From Infirmifilum sp. (GTDB lineage: Archaea; Thermoproteota; Thermoprotei; Thermofilales; Thermofilaceae), in assembly GCA_041287245.1 (NCBI GenBank), contig JBEULP010000117.1, positions 224,001-288,000 of the forward strand: DNA of 64,000 nucleotides, given 5' to 3'. The translations under genes and the position numbers were made by a program. This document shows, piece after piece, positions 44,714 through 52,624 of the stretch (positions are counted from its first letter, which is position 1; each line of letters opens with the position of its first letter). Below the pieces are notes generated by a model. That model was not told the origin of the DNA, made no database searches, and saw only the letters and a program-made list of their open reading frames with translations.

Positions 44714-46048
44714 GTGCCTGAATTCTCGGATTTGCTCTTAGAAGAAGTAAAAAATAAAAAAAGCGAAATTGAGCGGGTTCTCGCCGGTGGGGATTCAATC
44801 TTCAAGGAGTATGCAGAGCTTGTGAGTAAGAAGTGGAACCCGCTTCCAGCGCCAACCGTTGTACCCCGAAACATTTATGCTGTTGATAGTAGTAGCGGGG
44901 TAATCGAGCTTCGAGCAGGAGGCGTTCTCCTTGTTCTACGGAGTCTCGCTTTCTCAACACCACTGTCAACGCATAGAAAGCTTGGTGTTGAAGCTTTCTA
45001 TCCTCACAGCATACGCGACTTTGAAGAATACGTGAGGTTGGCTCGGGAGCACTACGAGCACAATGTCGCTTTAGACGCTTTAAACGAAAACCCTTCTTTT
45101 ATATTGCTTGACGGCTCCCTTTACGGAAGAATGATACATGTTCTGCGGGAGCTTGACCTTGAGGAGAGGGAGGATTTCCTCTTTGAGTACGTAAAAACTT
45201 ACAGTCAGTTTCTCAGGAAAGCCCTTGAGAATAAAGTGACAGTAATCGGGGTCAGCAAGGATTCAAGATCCACAATTTTCAAGGAGGAGTTACTGAAGGA
45301 GCAAGTGTTGCAGGAAGCCAGTAGGTTTGGGGCAGATACATCTGAATTGGCCGGGTTGTGGGGGAGTTTACGCCGGCGACCACGTGAGACAATAGAGAGT
45401 GTTAGACAAAAAGTACGGTCCGGCGAGCTCCCGGAAAGGATCTTAGAGTATTTTCTCCAGGCTAGGTCTCACATTCCTGATTCTAAAATCATCCTTCTTT
45501 CCGGGGTGGAGGAGGGATTCTCGACTCCTATCTTGTTGACTCTCTCTAAGATAATTGCTGGGCAATTTGACTTGGTGCTCAGTGAGGATGCTACCATGCA
45601 GATCCATAAATTGTCGAAGGTTTTTTCCAAAAGCTATGATGCTGACCCTGAGGAGTTTGAGGCGAGGGCTAGGGAGCTTATAGGGAACCTGAGAAGCTAT
45701 CCCCCGGTCGCGGTCTTCTATACTCTCTTGGGGCCGAATGATGACCCTATCAGAGTAGATGTCGTGAGCCATGAGCTTCAAGAGTTTTTGTTTTTAAAGG
45801 ATAGGCCGAGCCTTGAGTCTTTGCTTTTCATGCCCTCCATCATGGAAAAGGAAATGATCCCAATGACACTTTCTTTACTTCAAAGTCTCTATGCTGGGTA
45901 TAGAGGGTATAACGTGTTACTGCTCGAGGCGGATCGTAGGGTTAAAATCACTGTAGATACTTTGGAAACTTATAGGAAAATCATTATGAGGGAGCTTGAA
46001 CTTTTAGTTTTACATTCGAGGGGTGAGAGGCGTGTCCACTATCCTTAA
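44714..46048 (+). CDS. nurA: DNA double-strand break repair nuclease NurA
   Basis: YAVDSS, ILLDGSL, GVSKDS, GYNVLLLEAD motifs; first gene of an operon with herA, mre11 and rad50. Confidence 0.9.
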   Translation: MPEFSDLLLEEVKNKKSEIERVLAGGDSIFKEYAELVSKKWNPLPAPTVVPRNIYAVDSSSGVIELRAGGVLLVLRSLAFSTPLSTHRKLGVEAFYPHSIRDFEEYVRLAREHYEHNVALDALNENPSFILLDGSLYGRMIHVLRELDLEEREDFLFEYVKTYSQFLRKALENKVTVIGVSKDSRSTIFKEELLKEQVLQEASRFGADTSELAGLWGSLRRRPRETIESVRQKVRSGELPERILEYFLQARSHIPDSKIILLSGVEEGFSTPILLTLSKIIAGQFDLVLSEDATMQIHKLSKVFSKSYDADPEEFEARARELIGNLRSYPPVAVFYTLLGPNDDPIRVDVVSHELQEFLFLKDRPSLESLLFMPSIMEKEMIPMTLSLLQSLYAGYRGYNVLLLEADRRVKITVDTLETYRKIIMRELELLVLHSRGERRVHYP

Positions 46049-47642
46049 ACCGATAGGTAGGATAGTCGAGAAGGCGACTCCGGAAAGTTTTGTCTTCGTG
46101 ACCAGCCGCGATGAACATCCTCAAAAATTCGAGTATGTGGTGGTTAAATCGAAAGAGTATGTAAACGGTGTTCTGCGGGAGGTTGATGTACTAGCCCAGG
46201 TCGTAGGTGTTGTTTCATCAAGTTCTGCCTTTAGCTCCGAATATGATTACGGCACGTTGGAGAGGGTTTATAGGGCTGGAATAGATGACTCGAACATTCT
46301 CTGCGAAGCTAGAACTCTCGGCTACCTCTTAGAGGAGAACGGGCGAATCACGGTTCTTTCACCACGTAGGGCACTTTTCCCGGGAAACACTGTTTACCTA
46401 GCCCCAGACCAGCTAGTTAGGGATTTTTTCTCTTATAACCCTGACGAAGGAATCCACATAGGCTTTTTGGTCTCAAGGCCTAATGTCCCTGTTTTCCTCA
46501 CGGTAAACGGCTTTAGAAGGCACGTGGCTGTGATTGCTCAGACAGGAGCTGGAAAATCTTACACCGTGGGTGTCATACTTGAAGAGCTTCTGCGCCTCGG
46601 AGGCACGGTTATTGTAATAGACCCTCACGCAGACTATGTTTTTCTCAGTAGGACGCGTGATATGAGAAGACATGATTTCTCCGACAGGATCCTTGTCTTT
46701 CGAAATCCAAATAGTACGGGGCGTTATTCGAGAGAACAGCTTGATAATGTCCACGAGCTTGTCTTCAGATTTTCAGAGCTTAGGGGCGATGATATTGCAA
46801 GAATAGCAGGGATTCCCGAAAAGTGGACAAACGTTAGGGGAGTCATTATTAAAGCTGTTAAGAATCTCCGAGCTAAGAATCCTGATTATAGGGCTTACGA
46901 CCTGATAAAAGAACTGGAAAACATGGCGGAAAGTGGCGAGAAGAAGTATCGTTTAGCGGCGCAGAGCGCAGTTAACCATCTGCGAAGAATCCTGAACTAC
47001 AGTGTATTCGGGGATAGGACAACTCCACTTAAAGATGAAATACTGAAACCTGGATATGTGTCAATCCTTGACCTTTCAGGGTTAAATGACTCGAGCCAAG
47101 ACTACATAGTTAGCAGGGTTCTCGAGGAGCTGTTCTCACTGAAATACGGGATGGAGTTCCCATACCCGGTCTTCGTGGTTATAGAGGAGGCTCACAGGTT
47201 TATCCCAAGCCAGAAACTTAGAAGGAGGACGATGTCCTCAGACATAATAAAGACAATCACAGCAGAGGGGAGAAAGTTTGGCGTTTTCTTGATACTGGTA
47301 ACTCAGAGGCCCAGTAAGATTGATTCTGACGCGTTAAGCCAGTGTAATAGCCAGATAATTTTACGTGTAACTAATCCCTTGGATCAAATAGCCGTTCAGG
47401 AGGCAAGCGAGAGGCTAGGTAAGGAGATGATGAGTGATCTCCCGGGTCTAAACGTGGGAGAGGCTGTAATAGTCGGTGAGCTTACACGCGTTCCAGTGAT
47501 CGTAAAGGTGCGCGAAAGGAGAACACGGGAAGGGGGTGCTGACATAGACCTTGTAGAAGAGTTACGGAAGACGCGTGAGGAGTTTATGCTTTCAGCATCG
47601 AAGACCCCGCCACCCTCTAAGGGCGTGTTTTCAGAGGTGTAG
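46023..47642 (+). CDS. herA: HerA helicase/translocase
   Basis: N-terminal HAS barrel-like region, RHVAVIAQTGAGKS, IEEAHRF, EGRKFG, TQRPS, LSQCN; GTG 46032 is an alternative start. Confidence 0.93.
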   Translation: MRGVSTILKPIGRIVEKATPESFVFVTSRDEHPQKFEYVVVKSKEYVNGVLREVDVLAQVVGVVSSSSAFSSEYDYGTLERVYRAGIDDSNILCEARTLGYLLEENGRITVLSPRRALFPGNTVYLAPDQLVRDFFSYNPDEGIHIGFLVSRPNVPVFLTVNGFRRHVAVIAQTGAGKSYTVGVILEELLRLGGTVIVIDPHADYVFLSRTRDMRRHDFSDRILVFRNPNSTGRYSREQLDNVHELVFRFSELRGDDIARIAGIPEKWTNVRGVIIKAVKNLRAKNPDYRAYDLIKELENMAESGEKKYRLAAQSAVNHLRRILNYSVFGDRTTPLKDEILKPGYVSILDLSGLNDSSQDYIVSRVLEELFSLKYGMEFPYPVFVVIEEAHRFIPSQKLRRRTMSSDIIKTITAEGRKFGVFLILVTQRPSKIDSDALSQCNSQIILRVTNPLDQIAVQEASERLGKEMMSDLPGLNVGEAVIVGELTRVPVIVKVRERRTREGGADIDLVEELRKTREEFMLSASKTPPPSKGVFSEV

Positions 47643-47648
47643 AAACTG

Positions 47649-48815
47649 ATGGTTTTGAAAATAGTCCACACGGCTGATAATCACCTGGATCCAAAGCTCG
47701 GTTATCTGGGTTCAAAGGTTCAGGAGAGGAGGCAGGACTTCTACAAGTCGTTTCTTAGAGTTGTTGAGTATGTACTGGAGGTTAAACCTGATATTCTTCT
47801 AATCTCGGGGGATTTGTTTGACTCGATAAACCCGAGAAACCCAGTAAGGACGAATGTCCTGAAAGCCTTTCGGAGGATCTCCTCCGAAGGAGTTAGGATC
47901 TTCTTAATAGGAGGTAATCATGACATGCCGCGTTCTCAGGAGGAAGGCATGTCACCCCTCGGTGAGGTAGAGGCATCGGGTTACGCAACTTTTCTCTCAG
48001 ACCCGGCTGTCTTCCAGGTGGAGCACTTGAAGTTAGAGGGGTTTGATGTGGCGGTAGCAGGGCTCTCCTTTGACCCCACACTTGATACAAACGTAAACCC
48101 CCTGCGCGCTCGGAACCTCAGGATACCTATTGAGGGAGATATTAACATTGCGATGCTCCACTACAATTTTGCTGGATTTAGAATACCTCCCAGCTGGGCT
48201 GCGCCAACAATTACGCCTGAAGATATTCCCCCGGGGCTTCATTACCTGGCTTTGGGTCACCTGCACCAGTTCACGCACACTACCGTGAAGGGTGCTCACG
48301 TTGTATATCCCGGCAGTACTGAGCGTAGAAGCTTTAACGAGGAGAGCGACGAGAAGAAAGGCTTCGTCCACGCTGAAATCGACGGCTCGGGGGTCGTTCA
48401 TCTTAAGTTTATTGAGACTCCAACCCGCCCCATGAAAAGCTTCGAGCTGAGTTTGGATGATAAGATAGAAGACCCGATAGCCCATGTTGTGAGTTCAATT
48501 CCTTTTATAGACCCTAAAGCTCAAGTCAGAGTAAAGCTTAGGGGCTCCCTACCTCTTGAAAAGATCCGTCTATATAGTAAGGCTGAACTTGTAAAGAGGC
48601 TGGAAAATCGATTTTTCCACGTTACCATAGATGATTCGGAACTAAAATGTATCCTCCGGGAAGTTAGGATCTCAGGCGAAATAAGCTCCCCCCTGGACTC
48701 CTATAGGTCTTATTTCGAGGAAGCTCTTAAGAACGCCGTGGGAGAGGAAGCAGAAACCCTAAGGCTAGCGTTAGAGCTCGGAATGGCTGTCTTGCAGGAG
48801 GTGGGGGCATGGTAG
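47649..48815 (+). CDS. mre11: Mre11/SbcD family nuclease
   Basis: HTADNHL, SGDLFD, GGNHD, MLH, ALGHLH, YPGS. Confidence 0.92.
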   Translation: MVLKIVHTADNHLDPKLGYLGSKVQERRQDFYKSFLRVVEYVLEVKPDILLISGDLFDSINPRNPVRTNVLKAFRRISSEGVRIFLIGGNHDMPRSQEEGMSPLGEVEASGYATFLSDPAVFQVEHLKLEGFDVAVAGLSFDPTLDTNVNPLRARNLRIPIEGDINIAMLHYNFAGFRIPPSWAAPTITPEDIPPGLHYLALGHLHQFTHTTVKGAHVVYPGSTERRSFNEESDEKKGFVHAEIDGSGVVHLKFIETPTRPMKSFELSLDDKIEDPIAHVVSSIPFIDPKAQVRVKLRGSLPLEKIRLYSKAELVKRLENRFFHVTIDDSELKCILREVRISGEISSPLDSYRSYFEEALKNAVGEEAETLRLALELGMAVLQEVGAW

Positions 48816-51337
48816 TCATAAGAAGCCTTAAGGCGATAAACTTCAGGAGGCTAAACATCCCCGAGCCTCTCAACCTAGATAAGGGTATTTTCATTATCAG
48901 GGGTAGGAACGAGGCGGGAAAATCAACCTTTATAGAAGCAATCCTTTTCGGGCTCTACGGGGATCATCAAGTAATAGGGGATCTGCGAGGAAACCCCAGG
49001 CGAGGTTATGCTGAGGTCGTCAACCACAGGTCCCGTAAAGCCCTAGTGGAGGTTGAGTTCGAGGTAGACAATAGGAGGTACCGCGTGGCTCGAGAGCTGA
49101 TCAGGGATGGAGACTCGATAAAACAGGTTAATGCGAGGCTTGTTGAAATAACCGAGGGTTCTGAGAGGTTACTAGCAACAGGTGTCAAGCCTGTTAACGA
49201 CGAGGTGCATCGTATACTTAAGGTTTCATGGAAGGAGATGCTTACCACTAACATTGTTGCCCAAAAGGATCTGGAGCGCATTATTCATCTGAATAAGGGA
49301 GATAGGGAACAGATAATTAATCTCATGATGGGTCTAGAGAGCTACAACAGGGCTATTTCTAGCCTCGAAGATAGGAGAAGAGAGGCGAATAGAAAGAAGG
49401 AAGGACTGGCCGAGTTGTATGAAGAAAAAAGGAAAAGGGTAGAAGAGTTGAAACTTAAATTGGATGAACTCCCTGGATTACGTAGTGAACTTCAAAAGAT
49501 CGAGGAACAGCTTCCCGGACTCAGGGTTCGAGAGGAGCTTCTTAAGAAGGCCCTAGACTATCTCACAGCCCTCAGACAAGTGTTATTGAAGAAGAAAGAG
49601 TTGGAGCACCAGGAAGCCTCTCTCGAGGATCGTATTGTAGAAAAACAGGGTCAGCTCTCAGAGACTCAAAAACGCATTAATACGAACCTGAAGAGCTTAA
49701 GGGATATCGAATTGCTTTTGCCTCAGCTACTTGATAAAGATGGACATCTTAGGCAAGAATTACAGAAACTACGAGAGGAATATGACGCTAGAAGCCGACT
49801 TTTCAGCGATATTCAATCCTATAATGAGTATCGCACTAAGGAGTTGAAGAGGATTGAAGAGCTAGACCGTGAAATAAGGACAATAGAAGAGGAAGTCAGA
49901 CATCTGGAACAAAGCAAGGAGGAGATTACTCTACTCGAGAAAGAGAAATCAGCGCTTAAACAAGAGATTTCTACGCTGAAAATACCTTCATGGTCGAAGC
50001 TCGGCTTTCCTGCCCTTGGCGCCGGCGTTCTTGCCCTCCTTCTCATGCCTCAGACGGTCATTGTACCTATTGGCTTTCTTCTTGTAGGAGGGCTTCTCCT
50101 TTACCTTGGCTATAGAAAGAAAATAATGACGCAACAGGCGCTTCTAGCGAGAGCCAGCGCTGTCGAGGTTGAAATAAGCTCTAAGGCTGCTCTTGTCTCC
50201 AGATTAGACCGAGAAAAGAAAAGACTGGAGGATCTTGTAGCAGAAAAGGCAGAGCTTGAGAAGCACGTTAAGGATATCGAGGATAAAATAAGAGGGCTAG
50301 GTGGAAGAGAGTCTACGCTTCCCATAGAAGAAGCCCTTAATCTCTTAAAAAGGGAGTTAGAAAGGCAAAGGGAACAGATTGAGAGACTGGAAGGTGAAGA
50401 AAAAACGGTTCAGGCTAATATAGAGGTTTATTTAAAGGAGCAGAAAAGGCTCAAGGAGGAAACTGAGCAGTTACAGAAGAAGCTCTTGGAGATACAGCAA
50501 CAACTAAAGGAGCTGGAGGAGCGAAAAAGAAAGGTGGTCAGCGAGCTAAACGAGATTAAGATCCCCCCGCCGCCCTCCGAATTAAAGGCGAATGTTGAGT
50601 ATGTTGAGATTGCGTCAGAAGAGCAGGATTCCGAGTTGGTTGACCAGATATACGAGAAGCTTAACTGGGAGTACCATGATATTTCAGTTAAAAGAGCGGG
50701 ACTAGAGAAGGAAATAGGAAACCTCAGGAAGCGTATCGAGGAGACTGAGCTGCTTAGGCCCCAGCTAGAGCAGCTGCAAGGCGAGCTTGAAAAACTCGGT
50801 GGGGAATTGGCGGGATTAGAGAAGGAGTTAAAGGCTATAGATAAAGCCATCCGGGCTATGCAGGAGATCTCCCGTAAGAGACGCGAAGCCTTTGCGCCCA
50901 GTGTTGAGCAATATATAAGCTGGGTGATAGGCTATTTCACCAATGGTAGATACAAGGCAGTTAGGCTGCAACCTGACACGTATGACCTCGAGGTGTATGA
51001 TTCGGAAGCAGGTAGATGGCTCGTAAGAGATATATATTCCGGGGGGACTAATGATCAATTCCTCTTAGCCCTGAGAATCGCATTTACCTTGGCGCTCTTA
51101 CCTAGTGCGAAGGGCTCATATCCGAAGTTTCTCGTCCTGGACGAGCCTTTAGGTTCGTCTGACGCCGAGAGGCGAGAGAGGATAATAAGTTTCTTTACGG
51201 GCGAGCTTGTCAGGTTTTTCGACCAGGTTTTCCTTATAACTCACGTTGAGATAGAGGAGCCTCCCGGCGTTACAATTATTCAAATAGAAGACGGGAAGGT
51301 TGTCGGGGTTCACAGGTCTGTTCCAGAGGAATCATAG
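48809..51337 (+). CDS. rad50: Rad50/SbcC-like SMC-family ATPase lacking the zinc hook, with a central hydrophobic hairpin (SbcE/YhaN-like)
   Basis: Walker A GRNEAGKST, Q-loop VAQ, long coiled coils, signature YSGGT, Walker B VLDEP, ITH; no Cys; hydrophobic aa about 397-435. Confidence 0.85.
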   Translation: MVVIRSLKAINFRRLNIPEPLNLDKGIFIIRGRNEAGKSTFIEAILFGLYGDHQVIGDLRGNPRRGYAEVVNHRSRKALVEVEFEVDNRRYRVARELIRDGDSIKQVNARLVEITEGSERLLATGVKPVNDEVHRILKVSWKEMLTTNIVAQKDLERIIHLNKGDREQIINLMMGLESYNRAISSLEDRRREANRKKEGLAELYEEKRKRVEELKLKLDELPGLRSELQKIEEQLPGLRVREELLKKALDYLTALRQVLLKKKELEHQEASLEDRIVEKQGQLSETQKRINTNLKSLRDIELLLPQLLDKDGHLRQELQKLREEYDARSRLFSDIQSYNEYRTKELKRIEELDREIRTIEEEVRHLEQSKEEITLLEKEKSALKQEISTLKIPSWSKLGFPALGAGVLALLLMPQTVIVPIGFLLVGGLLLYLGYRKKIMTQQALLARASAVEVEISSKAALVSRLDREKKRLEDLVAEKAELEKHVKDIEDKIRGLGGRESTLPIEEALNLLKRELERQREQIERLEGEEKTVQANIEVYLKEQKRLKEETEQLQKKLLEIQQQLKELEERKRKVVSELNEIKIPPPPSELKANVEYVEIASEEQDSELVDQIYEKLNWEYHDISVKRAGLEKEIGNLRKRIEETELLRPQLEQLQGELEKLGGELAGLEKELKAIDKAIRAMQEISRKRREAFAPSVEQYISWVIGYFTNGRYKAVRLQPDTYDLEVYDSEAGRWLVRDIYSGGTNDQFLLALRIAFTLALLPSAKGSYPKFLVLDEPLGSSDAERRERIISFFTGELVRFFDQVFLITHVEIEEPPGVTIIQIEDGKVVGVHRSVPEES

Positions 51338-51883: not shown

Positions 51884-52624
51884 GTGTTTAGGGGTCTTGT
51901 AAAGGACGAGAGAAGTCTATATGATGAATTCGAGGAGAAAACACCATATTGGGACTATAGAACGGACAACTTCGCCTCGATTACTTTGCGCGACAGCAAG
52001 GCAGTACTCTGCTCCGGCCCCACCGAAGCTCTCTACTACTCTAACGCTGAAATCTCTGACGGGAGATTCGACGACCTCCCGTGGCAGATGAAAACCTTCG
52101 AGGCAAAGGTTAGAATGACGGGGACGCACTTTGGCTCTGCCGGGTGGGGCTTCTGGAACCACTCGATGCAGTTCAATCTAAGCCGGCCTATCTGGTTTAT
52201 ACACCTACAAAGCCGTGGACCATACCTTTTCCAAGGGTTTTTTGCCCAGGCGGTGACGGGTTTTGTTCCCATTAAGATTTACAGGGGTTCACTAACAGCT
52301 CCTAGTTTGCTATCCAGGCTTACACGAGGAGCCATCGGTGTTACAATATATACCCATAAGCCTGTCCTTCAGGAGCTTGATCTGAGTTCCTGGCACGTAT
52401 ACAAGATAGAGTGGCAAGCAGATAGTGCAGCCTTTTACATTGACGGCAACCTCGTTGCAAAAATACCCATCCGCGACTCCAACTTTAAGGCTCGGGCTGA
52501 CGTTTGGATCGATAATGCCGTTTTCGGCTACAACCCTAAGGATGCAGGCCAAGTGTACAGGCACCTTACACAGGAAAACAGGGAAAAGAATTGCCTAGAG
52601 GTAGATTACATAAAGATTTTCTAG
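51884..52624 (+). CDS. ConA-like / GH16-like beta-sandwich protein
   Basis: FEAKVRM...GWGFW and WHVYKIEWQADSAAFYIDG, VDYIKI patterns; catalytic ExDxxE not evident. Confidence 0.65.
   Translation: MFRGLVKDERSLYDEFEEKTPYWDYRTDNFASITLRDSKAVLCSGPTEALYYSNAEISDGRFDDLPWQMKTFEAKVRMTGTHFGSAGWGFWNHSMQFNLSRPIWFIHLQSRGPYLFQGFFAQAVTGFVPIKIYRGSLTAPSLLSRLTRGAIGVTIYTHKPVLQELDLSSWHVYKIEWQADSAAFYIDGNLVAKIPIRDSNFKARADVWIDNAVFGYNPKDAGQVYRHLTQENREKNCLEVDYIKIF

What the first reader, a model, noticed from the sequence alone, without database searches (positions are those of the whole stretch)
44714..51337. nurA-herA-mre11-rad50 operon as a possible membrane-localised DNA-processing system
Seen in sequence: four tightly coupled genes (overlaps or a 6-nt gap) in the order nurA, herA, mre11, hook-less rad50. 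Established: thermophilic archaea carry these four genes for break resection, commonly as herA-mre11-rad50-nurA. Inference: a full resection machine built on a membrane-anchored SMC subunit could act on DNA at the membrane (incoming viral or plasmid DNA, DNA uptake, or chromosome tethering during repair). It may be a second, specialised paralogous system, or a lineage-specific replacement of the normal one. I cannot tell which from this window.
Basis: partly seen in the sequence, partly recalled or inferred. Interest (0 to 1): 0.8.

Follow-up and report, generated by a model that had tools for sequence, protein, structure and literature searches.

The report
Membrane-anchored Rad50 replaces standard repair operon
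This archaeon's only Mre11-Rad50 operon is a divergent second version whose Rad50 has no zinc hook but a hydrophobic hairpin predicted to anchor it in the membrane, and this version likely took over DNA-break repair from the standard operon several times by gene transfer.

Summary
Confirmed: nurA-herA-mre11-rad50, all catalytic motifs intact. Rad50 (842 aa) has no cysteine; its apex is a 38-residue uncharged helix-turn-helix with basic flanks. It is the genome's only mre11/rad50, so not a second system here, but not the canonical orthologue either. All four genes fall in a separate clade shared with Bathyarchaeia, Asgard archaea, Dictyoglomota and Chloroflexota; its Rad50 lies on the bacterial SbcE side of the hook/hairpin split. 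Among 41 genomes of the order, 21 carry the hairpin operon, 14 the hook operon, none both. The pattern needs 5 changes on an RpoB tree, the hook operon's site is empty here, and the gene tree conflicts with the species tree. Best reading: a probably membrane-tethered housekeeping resection machine that repeatedly displaced the normal one. Membrane insertion and function are untested. Closest known: B. subtilis SbcE-SbcF. The scan noted this hairpin Rad50 before on other DNA (e1-2618415, e1-3163130). New variant; interest 0.5.

The parts
44714..46048 (+). nurA, 5'-3' nuclease of the hairpin-type clade; D58, E115, D133, K182 invariant in 33 of 33 clade members aligned
   Evidence: PF09376 71 bits; columns; tree
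46023..47642 (+). herA, DNA translocase ATPase (likelier start GTG 46032); Walker A GKS, Walker B EE, arginine finger and QR motif intact
   Evidence: PF01935 142 bits; NF040819 225 bits, below cut-off; columns
47649..48815 (+). mre11, the only copy found in the genome; phosphoesterase residues D10, H12, D55, N90, H91, H171, H204, H206 present
48809..51337 (+). hook-less Rad50/SbcC-like ATPase, 842 aa, no cysteine; Walker A, Q-loop, signature SGGT, Walker B DE, D-loop and H-loop intact; coiled-coil arms about residues 177-388 and 440-710
50000..50113 (+). apex hairpin, Rad50 residues 398-435: 38 residues without D/E/K/R, central Pro, K397 before and RKK after; predicted membrane hairpin where the zinc hook sits in canonical Rad50
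   Evidence: hydropathy, model, family statistics

Best explanation
This is the cell's only Mre11-Rad50 operon, a hook-less version from a separate gene clade that likely does the housekeeping job of DNA double-strand-break resection while predicted to be tethered to the cytoplasmic membrane by a two-helix hairpin at each Rad50 tip, and that likely displaced the standard hook-type operon by horizontal transfer. Shown here: gene content, intact catalytic motifs, no hook, single copy, separate clade, mutual exclusion with the hook operon in the order, empty site of the hook operon. Inferred from sequence: the hairpin inserts into the membrane with both flanks in the cytoplasm, so the two roughly 30 nm arms (212 residues at 1.5 A, rise recalled) hang the Rad50 heads and the Mre11 dimer into the cell. 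Inferred from the canonical system: ATP-bound heads scan DNA, the coils close on a free end, Mre11 trims it, and HerA-NurA resect the 5' strand to give a 3' tail for recombination (end-capture model from PMC10586767, passages; HerA-NurA roles recalled). Inferred and least certain: the membrane holds the two tips together or in one plane and so does the hook's job of closing the far end of the ring.
For: Single mre11 in a 99.99% complete assembly; 37 of 41 order genomes have an mre11, 21 beside hairpin Rad50, 14 beside CPLC-hook Rad50, 2 of a third type, none with both. Catalytic residues conserved across the clade. Hairpin: in 98 non-redundant members the 12 residues on each side carry 2.8 K/R and 0.7-0.8 D/E against 2.1 and 2.5 in the arms; flanks net positive in 93 of 98; Pro/Gly at the turn in 82 of 98; in 68 aligned members the hairpin is 98% apolar yet its top residue is shared by only 27%, less than the arms (31-32%), as expected of a lipid-facing rather than a protein-facing surface. 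Displacement: 5 changes on the RpoB tree of 31 genomes, hairpin genomes as one clade rejected (p-AU 3e-42); the aminotransferase gene is followed directly by canonical nurA in 8 hook-type genomes and directly by a roadblock gene in 7 of 7 genomes of this genus that have it, with stop codons overlapping in G000; the genus is one clade on RpoB (100/100, five members) but rejected as one clade on NurA+HerA+Mre11 (p-AU 5e-46). G079 joins hairpin-clade nurA and herA to hook-type mre11 and rad50, so the halves look interchangeable. Precedent: SbcE, hook-less with a hydrophobic centre, acts in break repair (PMC2811018).
Against: No localisation or activity data exist for any member. 38 residues is short for two full crossings, so a re-entrant or monotopic hairpin is possible. 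SbcE foci were seen on the nucleoid and moving between poles, and that paper does not call it a membrane protein. 9 of 36 hairpin-carrying genomes have further mre11-like genes; 4 of them with a hook-bearing partner and 2 with a canonical-clade operon, so the two systems are not always redundant. This genome has two more nurA-herA pairs and an arcadin-4-like SMC with CPVC that could share the work. Ancient paralogy with reciprocal loss can explain part of the pattern. Most genomes compared are incomplete assemblies. Hydrophobicity figures come from proteins chosen for the hairpin; only the flank-charge and conservation figures are independent of that choice.
Confidence: 0.62

Rival explanations
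1. Same repair job, but no membrane: two hairpins pack against each other as a soluble, metal-free four-helix dimerisation tip that simply replaces the zinc hook.
For: The hairpin sits exactly where the hook dimerises. Canonical-clade Rad50s with neither hook nor strong hairpin exist (G065 and G205 second copies, 758-759 aa), and some Lamassu LmuB lack the hook (PMC12663957, passages), so hook loss does not need a membrane. SbcE foci lie on the nucleoid.
Against: Apolar on all faces for about 39 residues, sequence less conserved than the arms, and basic flanks on both sides in 93 of 98 members: signs of a membrane segment, not of a specific protein interface.
Confidence: 0.13
2. A membrane-sited machine that mainly processes DNA entering the cell (Ced-type import or natural transformation) and feeds it to recombination; break repair is secondary.
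For: B. subtilis SbcE gathers at the polar uptake machinery and its loss cuts transformation about 20-fold (PMC2811018 discussion). The genome has CedD-like and CedB-like ATPases (125 and 32 bits, far below cut-off). The operon moves horizontally, as a gene set that helps uptake might.
Against: No pilus, Ced or competence gene was recognised beside the operon in the Thermofilales loci mapped; neighbours differ between genomes. It is the only mre11 in 21 of 21 hairpin-type genomes of the order, so it must also cover repair.
Confidence: 0.13
3. An anti-virus or anti-plasmid system that degrades linear DNA ends as they cross the membrane, spread like a defence system, with the canonical operon lost afterwards.
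For: Patchy, cross-domain distribution (27 of 401 phylum genomes sampled), repeated transfer, coexistence with hook systems in some genomes. Lamassu arose from SbcCD (PMC12663957); Rad50 complexes sense viral DNA ends in eukaryotes (PMC10586767).
Against: Neighbours here are housekeeping (peroxiredoxin, RpiB); 0 of 4 flanking proteins tested hit PADLOC; no effector gene; no hairpin form among 41 SMC-like ORFs from viral contigs or on plasmids (6 head-only hits); third-position GC 0.49-0.52 like its neighbours; sole copy in 27 of 36 carriers checked. The PADLOC HerA and LmuB hits are family-level similarity.
Confidence: 0.08
4. The canonical Thermofilales Rad50 lost its hook in place and the operon is vertically inherited.
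For: Single copy and same gene order as hook-type relatives.
Against: All four trees separate it from the canonical clade; AU tests reject one Thermofilales clade; the canonical site is empty.
Confidence: 0.02

Closest known systems
SbcE-SbcF (YhaN-YhaO) of Bacillus subtilis (PMC2811018; read: abstract passage, matched passages, whole discussion)
   Same: Rad50-like ATPase with no CxxC and a hydrophobic central domain, next to an Mre11/SbcD-like nuclease. Two Bacillota SbcE proteins fetched here have the same kind of hydrophobic stretch at 47-49% of their length. SbcE and the hairpin clade lie on one side of a 99/95 branch against 18 hook-side proteins.
   Different: Separate clade (SbcE 99/90, core hairpin clade 96/93); no full-length AAA_27 match (18 bits, residues 24-51, against 71-93 bits over about 200 residues); shorter; carries its own nurA and herA, which the SbcE loci fetched lack; sole Mre11-Rad50 of the cell, whereas Bacillus also has SbcCD. 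The paper does not describe the central domain as transmembrane.
Canonical archaeal NurA-HerA-Mre11-Rad50 resection operon (Pyrococcus, Sulfolobus; hook-type Thermofilales)
   Same: Same four genes, same order as in 11 of 14 hook-type Thermofilales, all catalytic motifs, Rad50 head fold (best sequence hits 3aux, 3qku).
   Different: No zinc hook; all four proteins far below the NCBIfam equivalog cut-offs and in a separate clade; Mre11 scores 82-110 bits on NF041031 against 185-282 for full-length hook-type copies of the same order; different chromosomal site.
Arcadin-4 and ASRP/ClsN/Sph archaeal SMC-related proteins (PMC9389158, passages)
   Same: Archaeal Rad50-like coiled-coil ATPases outside canonical SMC.
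   Different: They keep a zinc hook and have no Mre11 partner; the genome's own arcadin-4-like protein is a different gene on contig C49.
Lamassu LmuB and HerA-type anti-phage systems
   Same: SbcC-derived ATPase, some without a hook (PMC12663957, passages); family-level PADLOC hits.
   Different: No LmuA effector or LmuC, an intact Mre11 instead, no defence neighbourhood; HerA scores far below the anti-phage equivalog cut-offs.

Membership tests
Canonical archaeal Rad50 / NurA-HerA-Mre11-Rad50 | Split ABC ATPase head with Walker A, Q-loop, signature, Walker B, D- and H-loops on an antiparallel coiled coil | tested here: met
Canonical archaeal Rad50 / NurA-HerA-Mre11-Rad50 | CxxC zinc hook at the apex | tested here: not met
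   0 Cys; no PF04423 hit in the genome, while hook-type relatives hit it
Canonical archaeal Rad50 / NurA-HerA-Mre11-Rad50 | Operon with catalytically intact mre11, herA and nurA | tested here: met
Canonical archaeal Rad50 / NurA-HerA-Mre11-Rad50 | Orthology: groups with crenarchaeal hook-type copies | tested here: not met
   trees; AU tests
Canonical archaeal Rad50 / NurA-HerA-Mre11-Rad50 | ATP-dependent end resection; role in break repair | not testable with these tools
   needs reconstitution or genetics
SbcE-SbcF (YhaN-YhaO) | No CxxC; hydrophobic central domain | tested here: met
SbcE-SbcF (YhaN-YhaO) | Mre11/SbcD-like nuclease gene directly upstream | tested here: met
SbcE-SbcF (YhaN-YhaO) | Full-length AAA_27 (PF13514) N-terminal head match, as in the SbcE proteins fetched | tested here: not met
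   18.4 bits, below cut-off 22, against 71-93 bits for two SbcE proteins
SbcE-SbcF (YhaN-YhaO) | Falls inside the SbcE/SbcF clade | tested here: not met
   outside a starred SbcE clade; only 4 SbcE rows were used
SbcE-SbcF (YhaN-YhaO) | Shares one origin of the hairpin with SbcE (sister families) | tested here: inconclusive
   Rad50 heads 99/95 and 95, but unrooted with long branches; Mre11 support 84 and 2
Membrane-anchored protein | Hydrophobic helical hairpin with basic flanks and low sequence conservation | tested here: met
Membrane-anchored protein | Physical insertion in the membrane | not testable with these tools
   needs fractionation or liposome assays
Lamassu / SMC-based defence | Effector and LmuC genes, defence-island context | tested here: not met
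   (4 flanking proteins scanned)
Arcadin-4 | NF053563 match and place in the crenactin cluster | tested here: not met
   29 bits against 263 bits for the C49 protein

The most novel reading that the evidence does not exclude
The membrane itself is the hook: a cross-domain class of Mre11-Rad50-HerA-NurA machines closes its coiled-coil ring in the lipid layer, catches and resects DNA ends at the cell envelope, and has an advantage large enough to evict the canonical operon at least five times in one archaeal order, for example by holding broken ends at the membrane, by processing imported DNA, or by needing no zinc.
Probability: 0.3. Interest if true: 0.8.

Novelty: new variant of a known kind. 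Interest (0 to 1): 0.5.

Why it matters
The zinc hook is treated as a defining part of Rad50 (PMC10586767, passages). Here whole lineages appear to run their only Mre11-Rad50 without it. That gives a natural test of an open question: what the far end of the coiled coils must do for end sensing, and whether a membrane can do it. It would place break resection at the membrane in these cells, suggest that the little-studied SbcE centre is a membrane anchor, and give a clear case of a four-gene core repair module being swapped repeatedly between genomes. Named, cultured carriers exist (Thermofilum pendens, T. adornatum, Infirmifilum lucidum, I. uzonense; Thermosporothrix hazakensis), so the proteins can be made and tested.

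Tried and rejected
Complex prediction of two copies of Rad50 residues 320-520: no verdict, score 0.00, no evidence either way. Public RNA runs: no RNA holder listed. Viral contigs with the single protein: no relative; with the alignment, 45 distant loci, 41 SMC-like ORFs, 30 with CxxC, 0 with a hairpin. Plasmids: 6 head-only hits. ESM Atlas on residues 300-540: unnamed clusters and generic coiled coils only. Fold and sequence searches of the PDB: hook-type Rad50 and SMC structures, no solved hairpin form among those listed. Sigma-70 promoter and terminator scan: at chance level and not suited to archaea. GC content and skew: nothing unusual at the locus. Unusual gene order as a sign of specialisation: rejected. 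Arcadin-4 as the missing hook-type Rad50: rejected, it occurs in hook-type and hairpin-type genomes alike and has no mre11 beside it. Literature: nine searches listed no paper describing a transmembrane Rad50 apex or this operon. The 2020 classification of ABC ATPases (Krishnan et al.) was not held and may describe such forms; I saw no supplements, and that of PMC2811018 (alignment of the SbcE central domain) bears on the SbcE comparison.
Full report
1. Observation. Pfam names them NurA, HerA, a calcineurin-like phosphoesterase and an SMC-type ATPase; the best NCBIfam hits are NurA, HerA, Mre11 and Rad50, all far below the equivalog cut-offs. The closest named homologues come from Infirmifilum and Thermofilum, so the genome belongs to the Thermofilaceae. 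Catalytic residues of all four proteins are present and nearly invariant in the clade (33 NurA, 35 HerA, 58 Mre11, 66 Rad50 rows; which residues are catalytic is recalled from the canonical enzymes).

2. The apex. Rad50 has no cysteine. Residues 398-435 carry no charge and form a helix-turn-helix at the fold-back of the coiled coil in an AlphaFold2 model (mean pLDDT 83.7, 54-71 at the hairpin). Of 120 homologues listed, 114 have this stretch and no CxxC, 5 have CPTC and no stretch, 1 is a fragment. Of 132 further 50%-cluster representatives, 123 are full length; 119 of these have the hairpin and none a mid-chain CxxC (the profile was built from hairpin proteins). In 98 non-redundant members (from 175; four fragments, one duplicate and four distant rows left out) the uncharged run has a median of 39 residues at 47% of the chain, both flanks are rich in K/R (2.8 per 12 residues against 0.7-0.8 D/E; arms 2.1 and 2.5), and in 68 aligned members the hairpin is 98% apolar but less conserved in sequence (0.27) than the arms (0.31-0.32) or heads (0.53-0.64). 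Forty hook-bearing controls never exceed 0.55 on the same scale. This is the pattern of a membrane hairpin with both ends inside. It remains a prediction, and the length also fits a re-entrant hairpin.

3. Copies in this genome. One mre11 (assembly 99.99% complete, 5.05% contamination, 119 contigs). No zinc-hook Pfam hit. The only other Rad50-like protein is an arcadin-4-like SMC with CPVC beside crenactin on C49. Two further nurA-herA pairs lie on C21 and C10 without mre11 or rad50 and are long branches outside the window's clade. So this is the cell's Mre11-Rad50, not a spare.

4. Two exclusive operons in one order. Of 41 genomes of the order, 37 show an mre11: 21 beside a hairpin Rad50, 14 beside a CPLC-hook Rad50 of about 900-920 aa where complete, 2 of a third type; none has both, 4 have none found. 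Both types mostly read nurA-herA-mre11-rad50 (19 of 21 and 11 of 14; the rest are cut by contig ends or rearranged). On an RpoB tree of 31 of the 41 genomes the two states need 5 changes, and hairpin genomes as one clade are rejected (p-AU 3e-42; G024 and G031 were labelled hook-type from their canonical nurA alone). The hook operon has a fixed address: it follows an aminotransferase gene in 8 hook-side genomes, and in G019 ends at a roadblock gene. In 7 of 7 genomes of this genus with that gene, aminotransferase and roadblock are adjacent (24 of 41 genomes gave the gene); in G000 their stop codons overlap, and the hairpin operon lies about 235 kb away. The genus is one clade on RpoB but is rejected as one clade on NurA+HerA+Mre11 (p-AU 5e-46; I ran this test after seeing the single-gene trees), G011 moves to another family, and G125 from outside the order nests among Thermofilaceae copies. 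Repeated transfer with loss of the resident operon fits best; ancient paralogy with reciprocal loss may account for part.

5. Wider range and ancestry. In 401 genomes sampled from the phylum, 27 have an Mre11 of this type (167 bits or more, next best 103); for 12 of the 13 outside the order the adjacent Rad50 has the hairpin, and the last is cut by a contig end. Mre11, HerA and NurA of hairpin operons each form one side of a branch (98, 99, 97 SH-aLRT in quick trees), Rad50 heads 89 and 96/93 for the 15-row core under a mixture model. Holding Thermofilales hook and hairpin copies together is rejected. G079 is a chimera: hairpin-clade nurA and herA with hook-type mre11 and rad50. Of 36 hairpin carriers checked, 27 have one mre11-like match; G125, G423, G430 and G442 also have a hook-bearing pair, G065 and G205 a canonical-clade operon, and three Ktedonobacteria a lone second nuclease. 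No hairpin form was seen on viral contigs or plasmids.

6. Known relatives. B. subtilis SbcE lacks the CxxC, has a hydrophobic, insoluble central domain and an Mre11-like partner, and works in break repair and transformation (PMC2811018: passages and the whole discussion). Two Bacillota SbcE proteins fetched here show the same kind of mid-chain hydrophobic stretch; two proteobacterial AAA_27 proteins do not reach the threshold. SbcE and the hairpin clade share one side of a 99/95 branch against 18 hook-side proteins, but the tree is unrooted, branches are long, and Mre11 gives weak support. The window's protein is outside the SbcE clade and lacks its AAA_27 head match. So it works like canonical NurA-HerA-Mre11-Rad50, is built like SbcE, and is a member of neither by the tests run. 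PMC9389158, PMC12663957 and PMC10586767 were read as matched passages only; none of those passages mentions a membrane apex. Nine searches listed no paper on it; one likely source was not held. Earlier notes of this scan describe the same hairpin Rad50 in other genomes; the lines shown do not mention the exclusion, empty site or repeated transfer reported here.

7. Mechanism and odds. Most likely (0.62): membrane-tethered housekeeping resection, with the membrane taking over some of the hook's role. Rivals: soluble hydrophobic dimer tip (0.13), processing of imported DNA as the main job (0.13), defence (0.08), vertical hook loss (0.02). Every functional step is inferred from the canonical system; the sequence, copy-number, synteny and tree results are shown.

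8. Verdict. Real feature; new variant of a known kind; interest 0.5. The hook-less hydrophobic apex has a precedent in SbcE and has been seen before in this scan. What lifts it is that a complete four-gene version stands in for the canonical operon, apparently repeatedly, in organisms that can be grown.

Noticed in passing
L182:3991-6264 (-) (G065) and L183:3565-5841 (-) (G205): Canonical-clade Rad50 (758-759 aa) in a nurA-herA-mre11-rad50 operon with neither a CxxC nor a strong hydrophobic hairpin: a third kind of apex, in genomes that also carry the hairpin operon.
   Followed up: partly
L200 (G079:C1:413500-426500): Chimeric operon: nurA and herA from the hairpin clade joined to hook-type mre11 and rad50 (CPIC).
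   Followed up: partly
G000:C21:7987-10997 and G000:C10:1551-4254: Two further nurA-herA pairs without mre11 or rad50; many genomes of the order have 2-3 nurA genes. Their roles are unexplained.
   Followed up: partly
L073 (G026) and L074 (G033): A third herA-mre11-rad50 type in family f5, with a very divergent HerA; Rad50 cut by contig ends, apex not seen.
   Followed up: no
G000:C49:101988-106597: Arcadin-4-like SMC protein with CPVC hook next to a crenactin-like gene; present in hook-type and hairpin-type genomes alike.
   Followed up: partly
G000:C61:14148-15188 and C32:703-2673: CedD-like and CedB-like ATPases with weak NCBIfam matches, a possible DNA import system.
   Followed up: no
L144/L145 (G125, G184): Hairpin operon in a lineage outside the order whose Mre11 is 57% identical to the window's and nests among Thermofilaceae copies; Rad50 arms are shorter (708 aa); G125 also keeps a hook-type operon.
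   Followed up: partly
L185:5590-8640 (G423) and L139:8004-10326: Other hairpin-bearing Rad50-like proteins outside the main clade: a 655-aa form that branches with SbcE, and a 774-aa form in a Magnetococcus genome with no mre11 recognised beside it.
   Followed up: no
L040:11033-11401 (G001): The hairpin operon of G001 ends at a roadblock gene 78% identical to the one marking the hook operon's old site, although that genome also has a roadblock gene at the old site.
   Followed up: no
window 51884-52624: Conserved 246-aa protein with a weak glycoside hydrolase 16 match, co-oriented after rad50 and rpiB in four close genomes.
   Followed up: no
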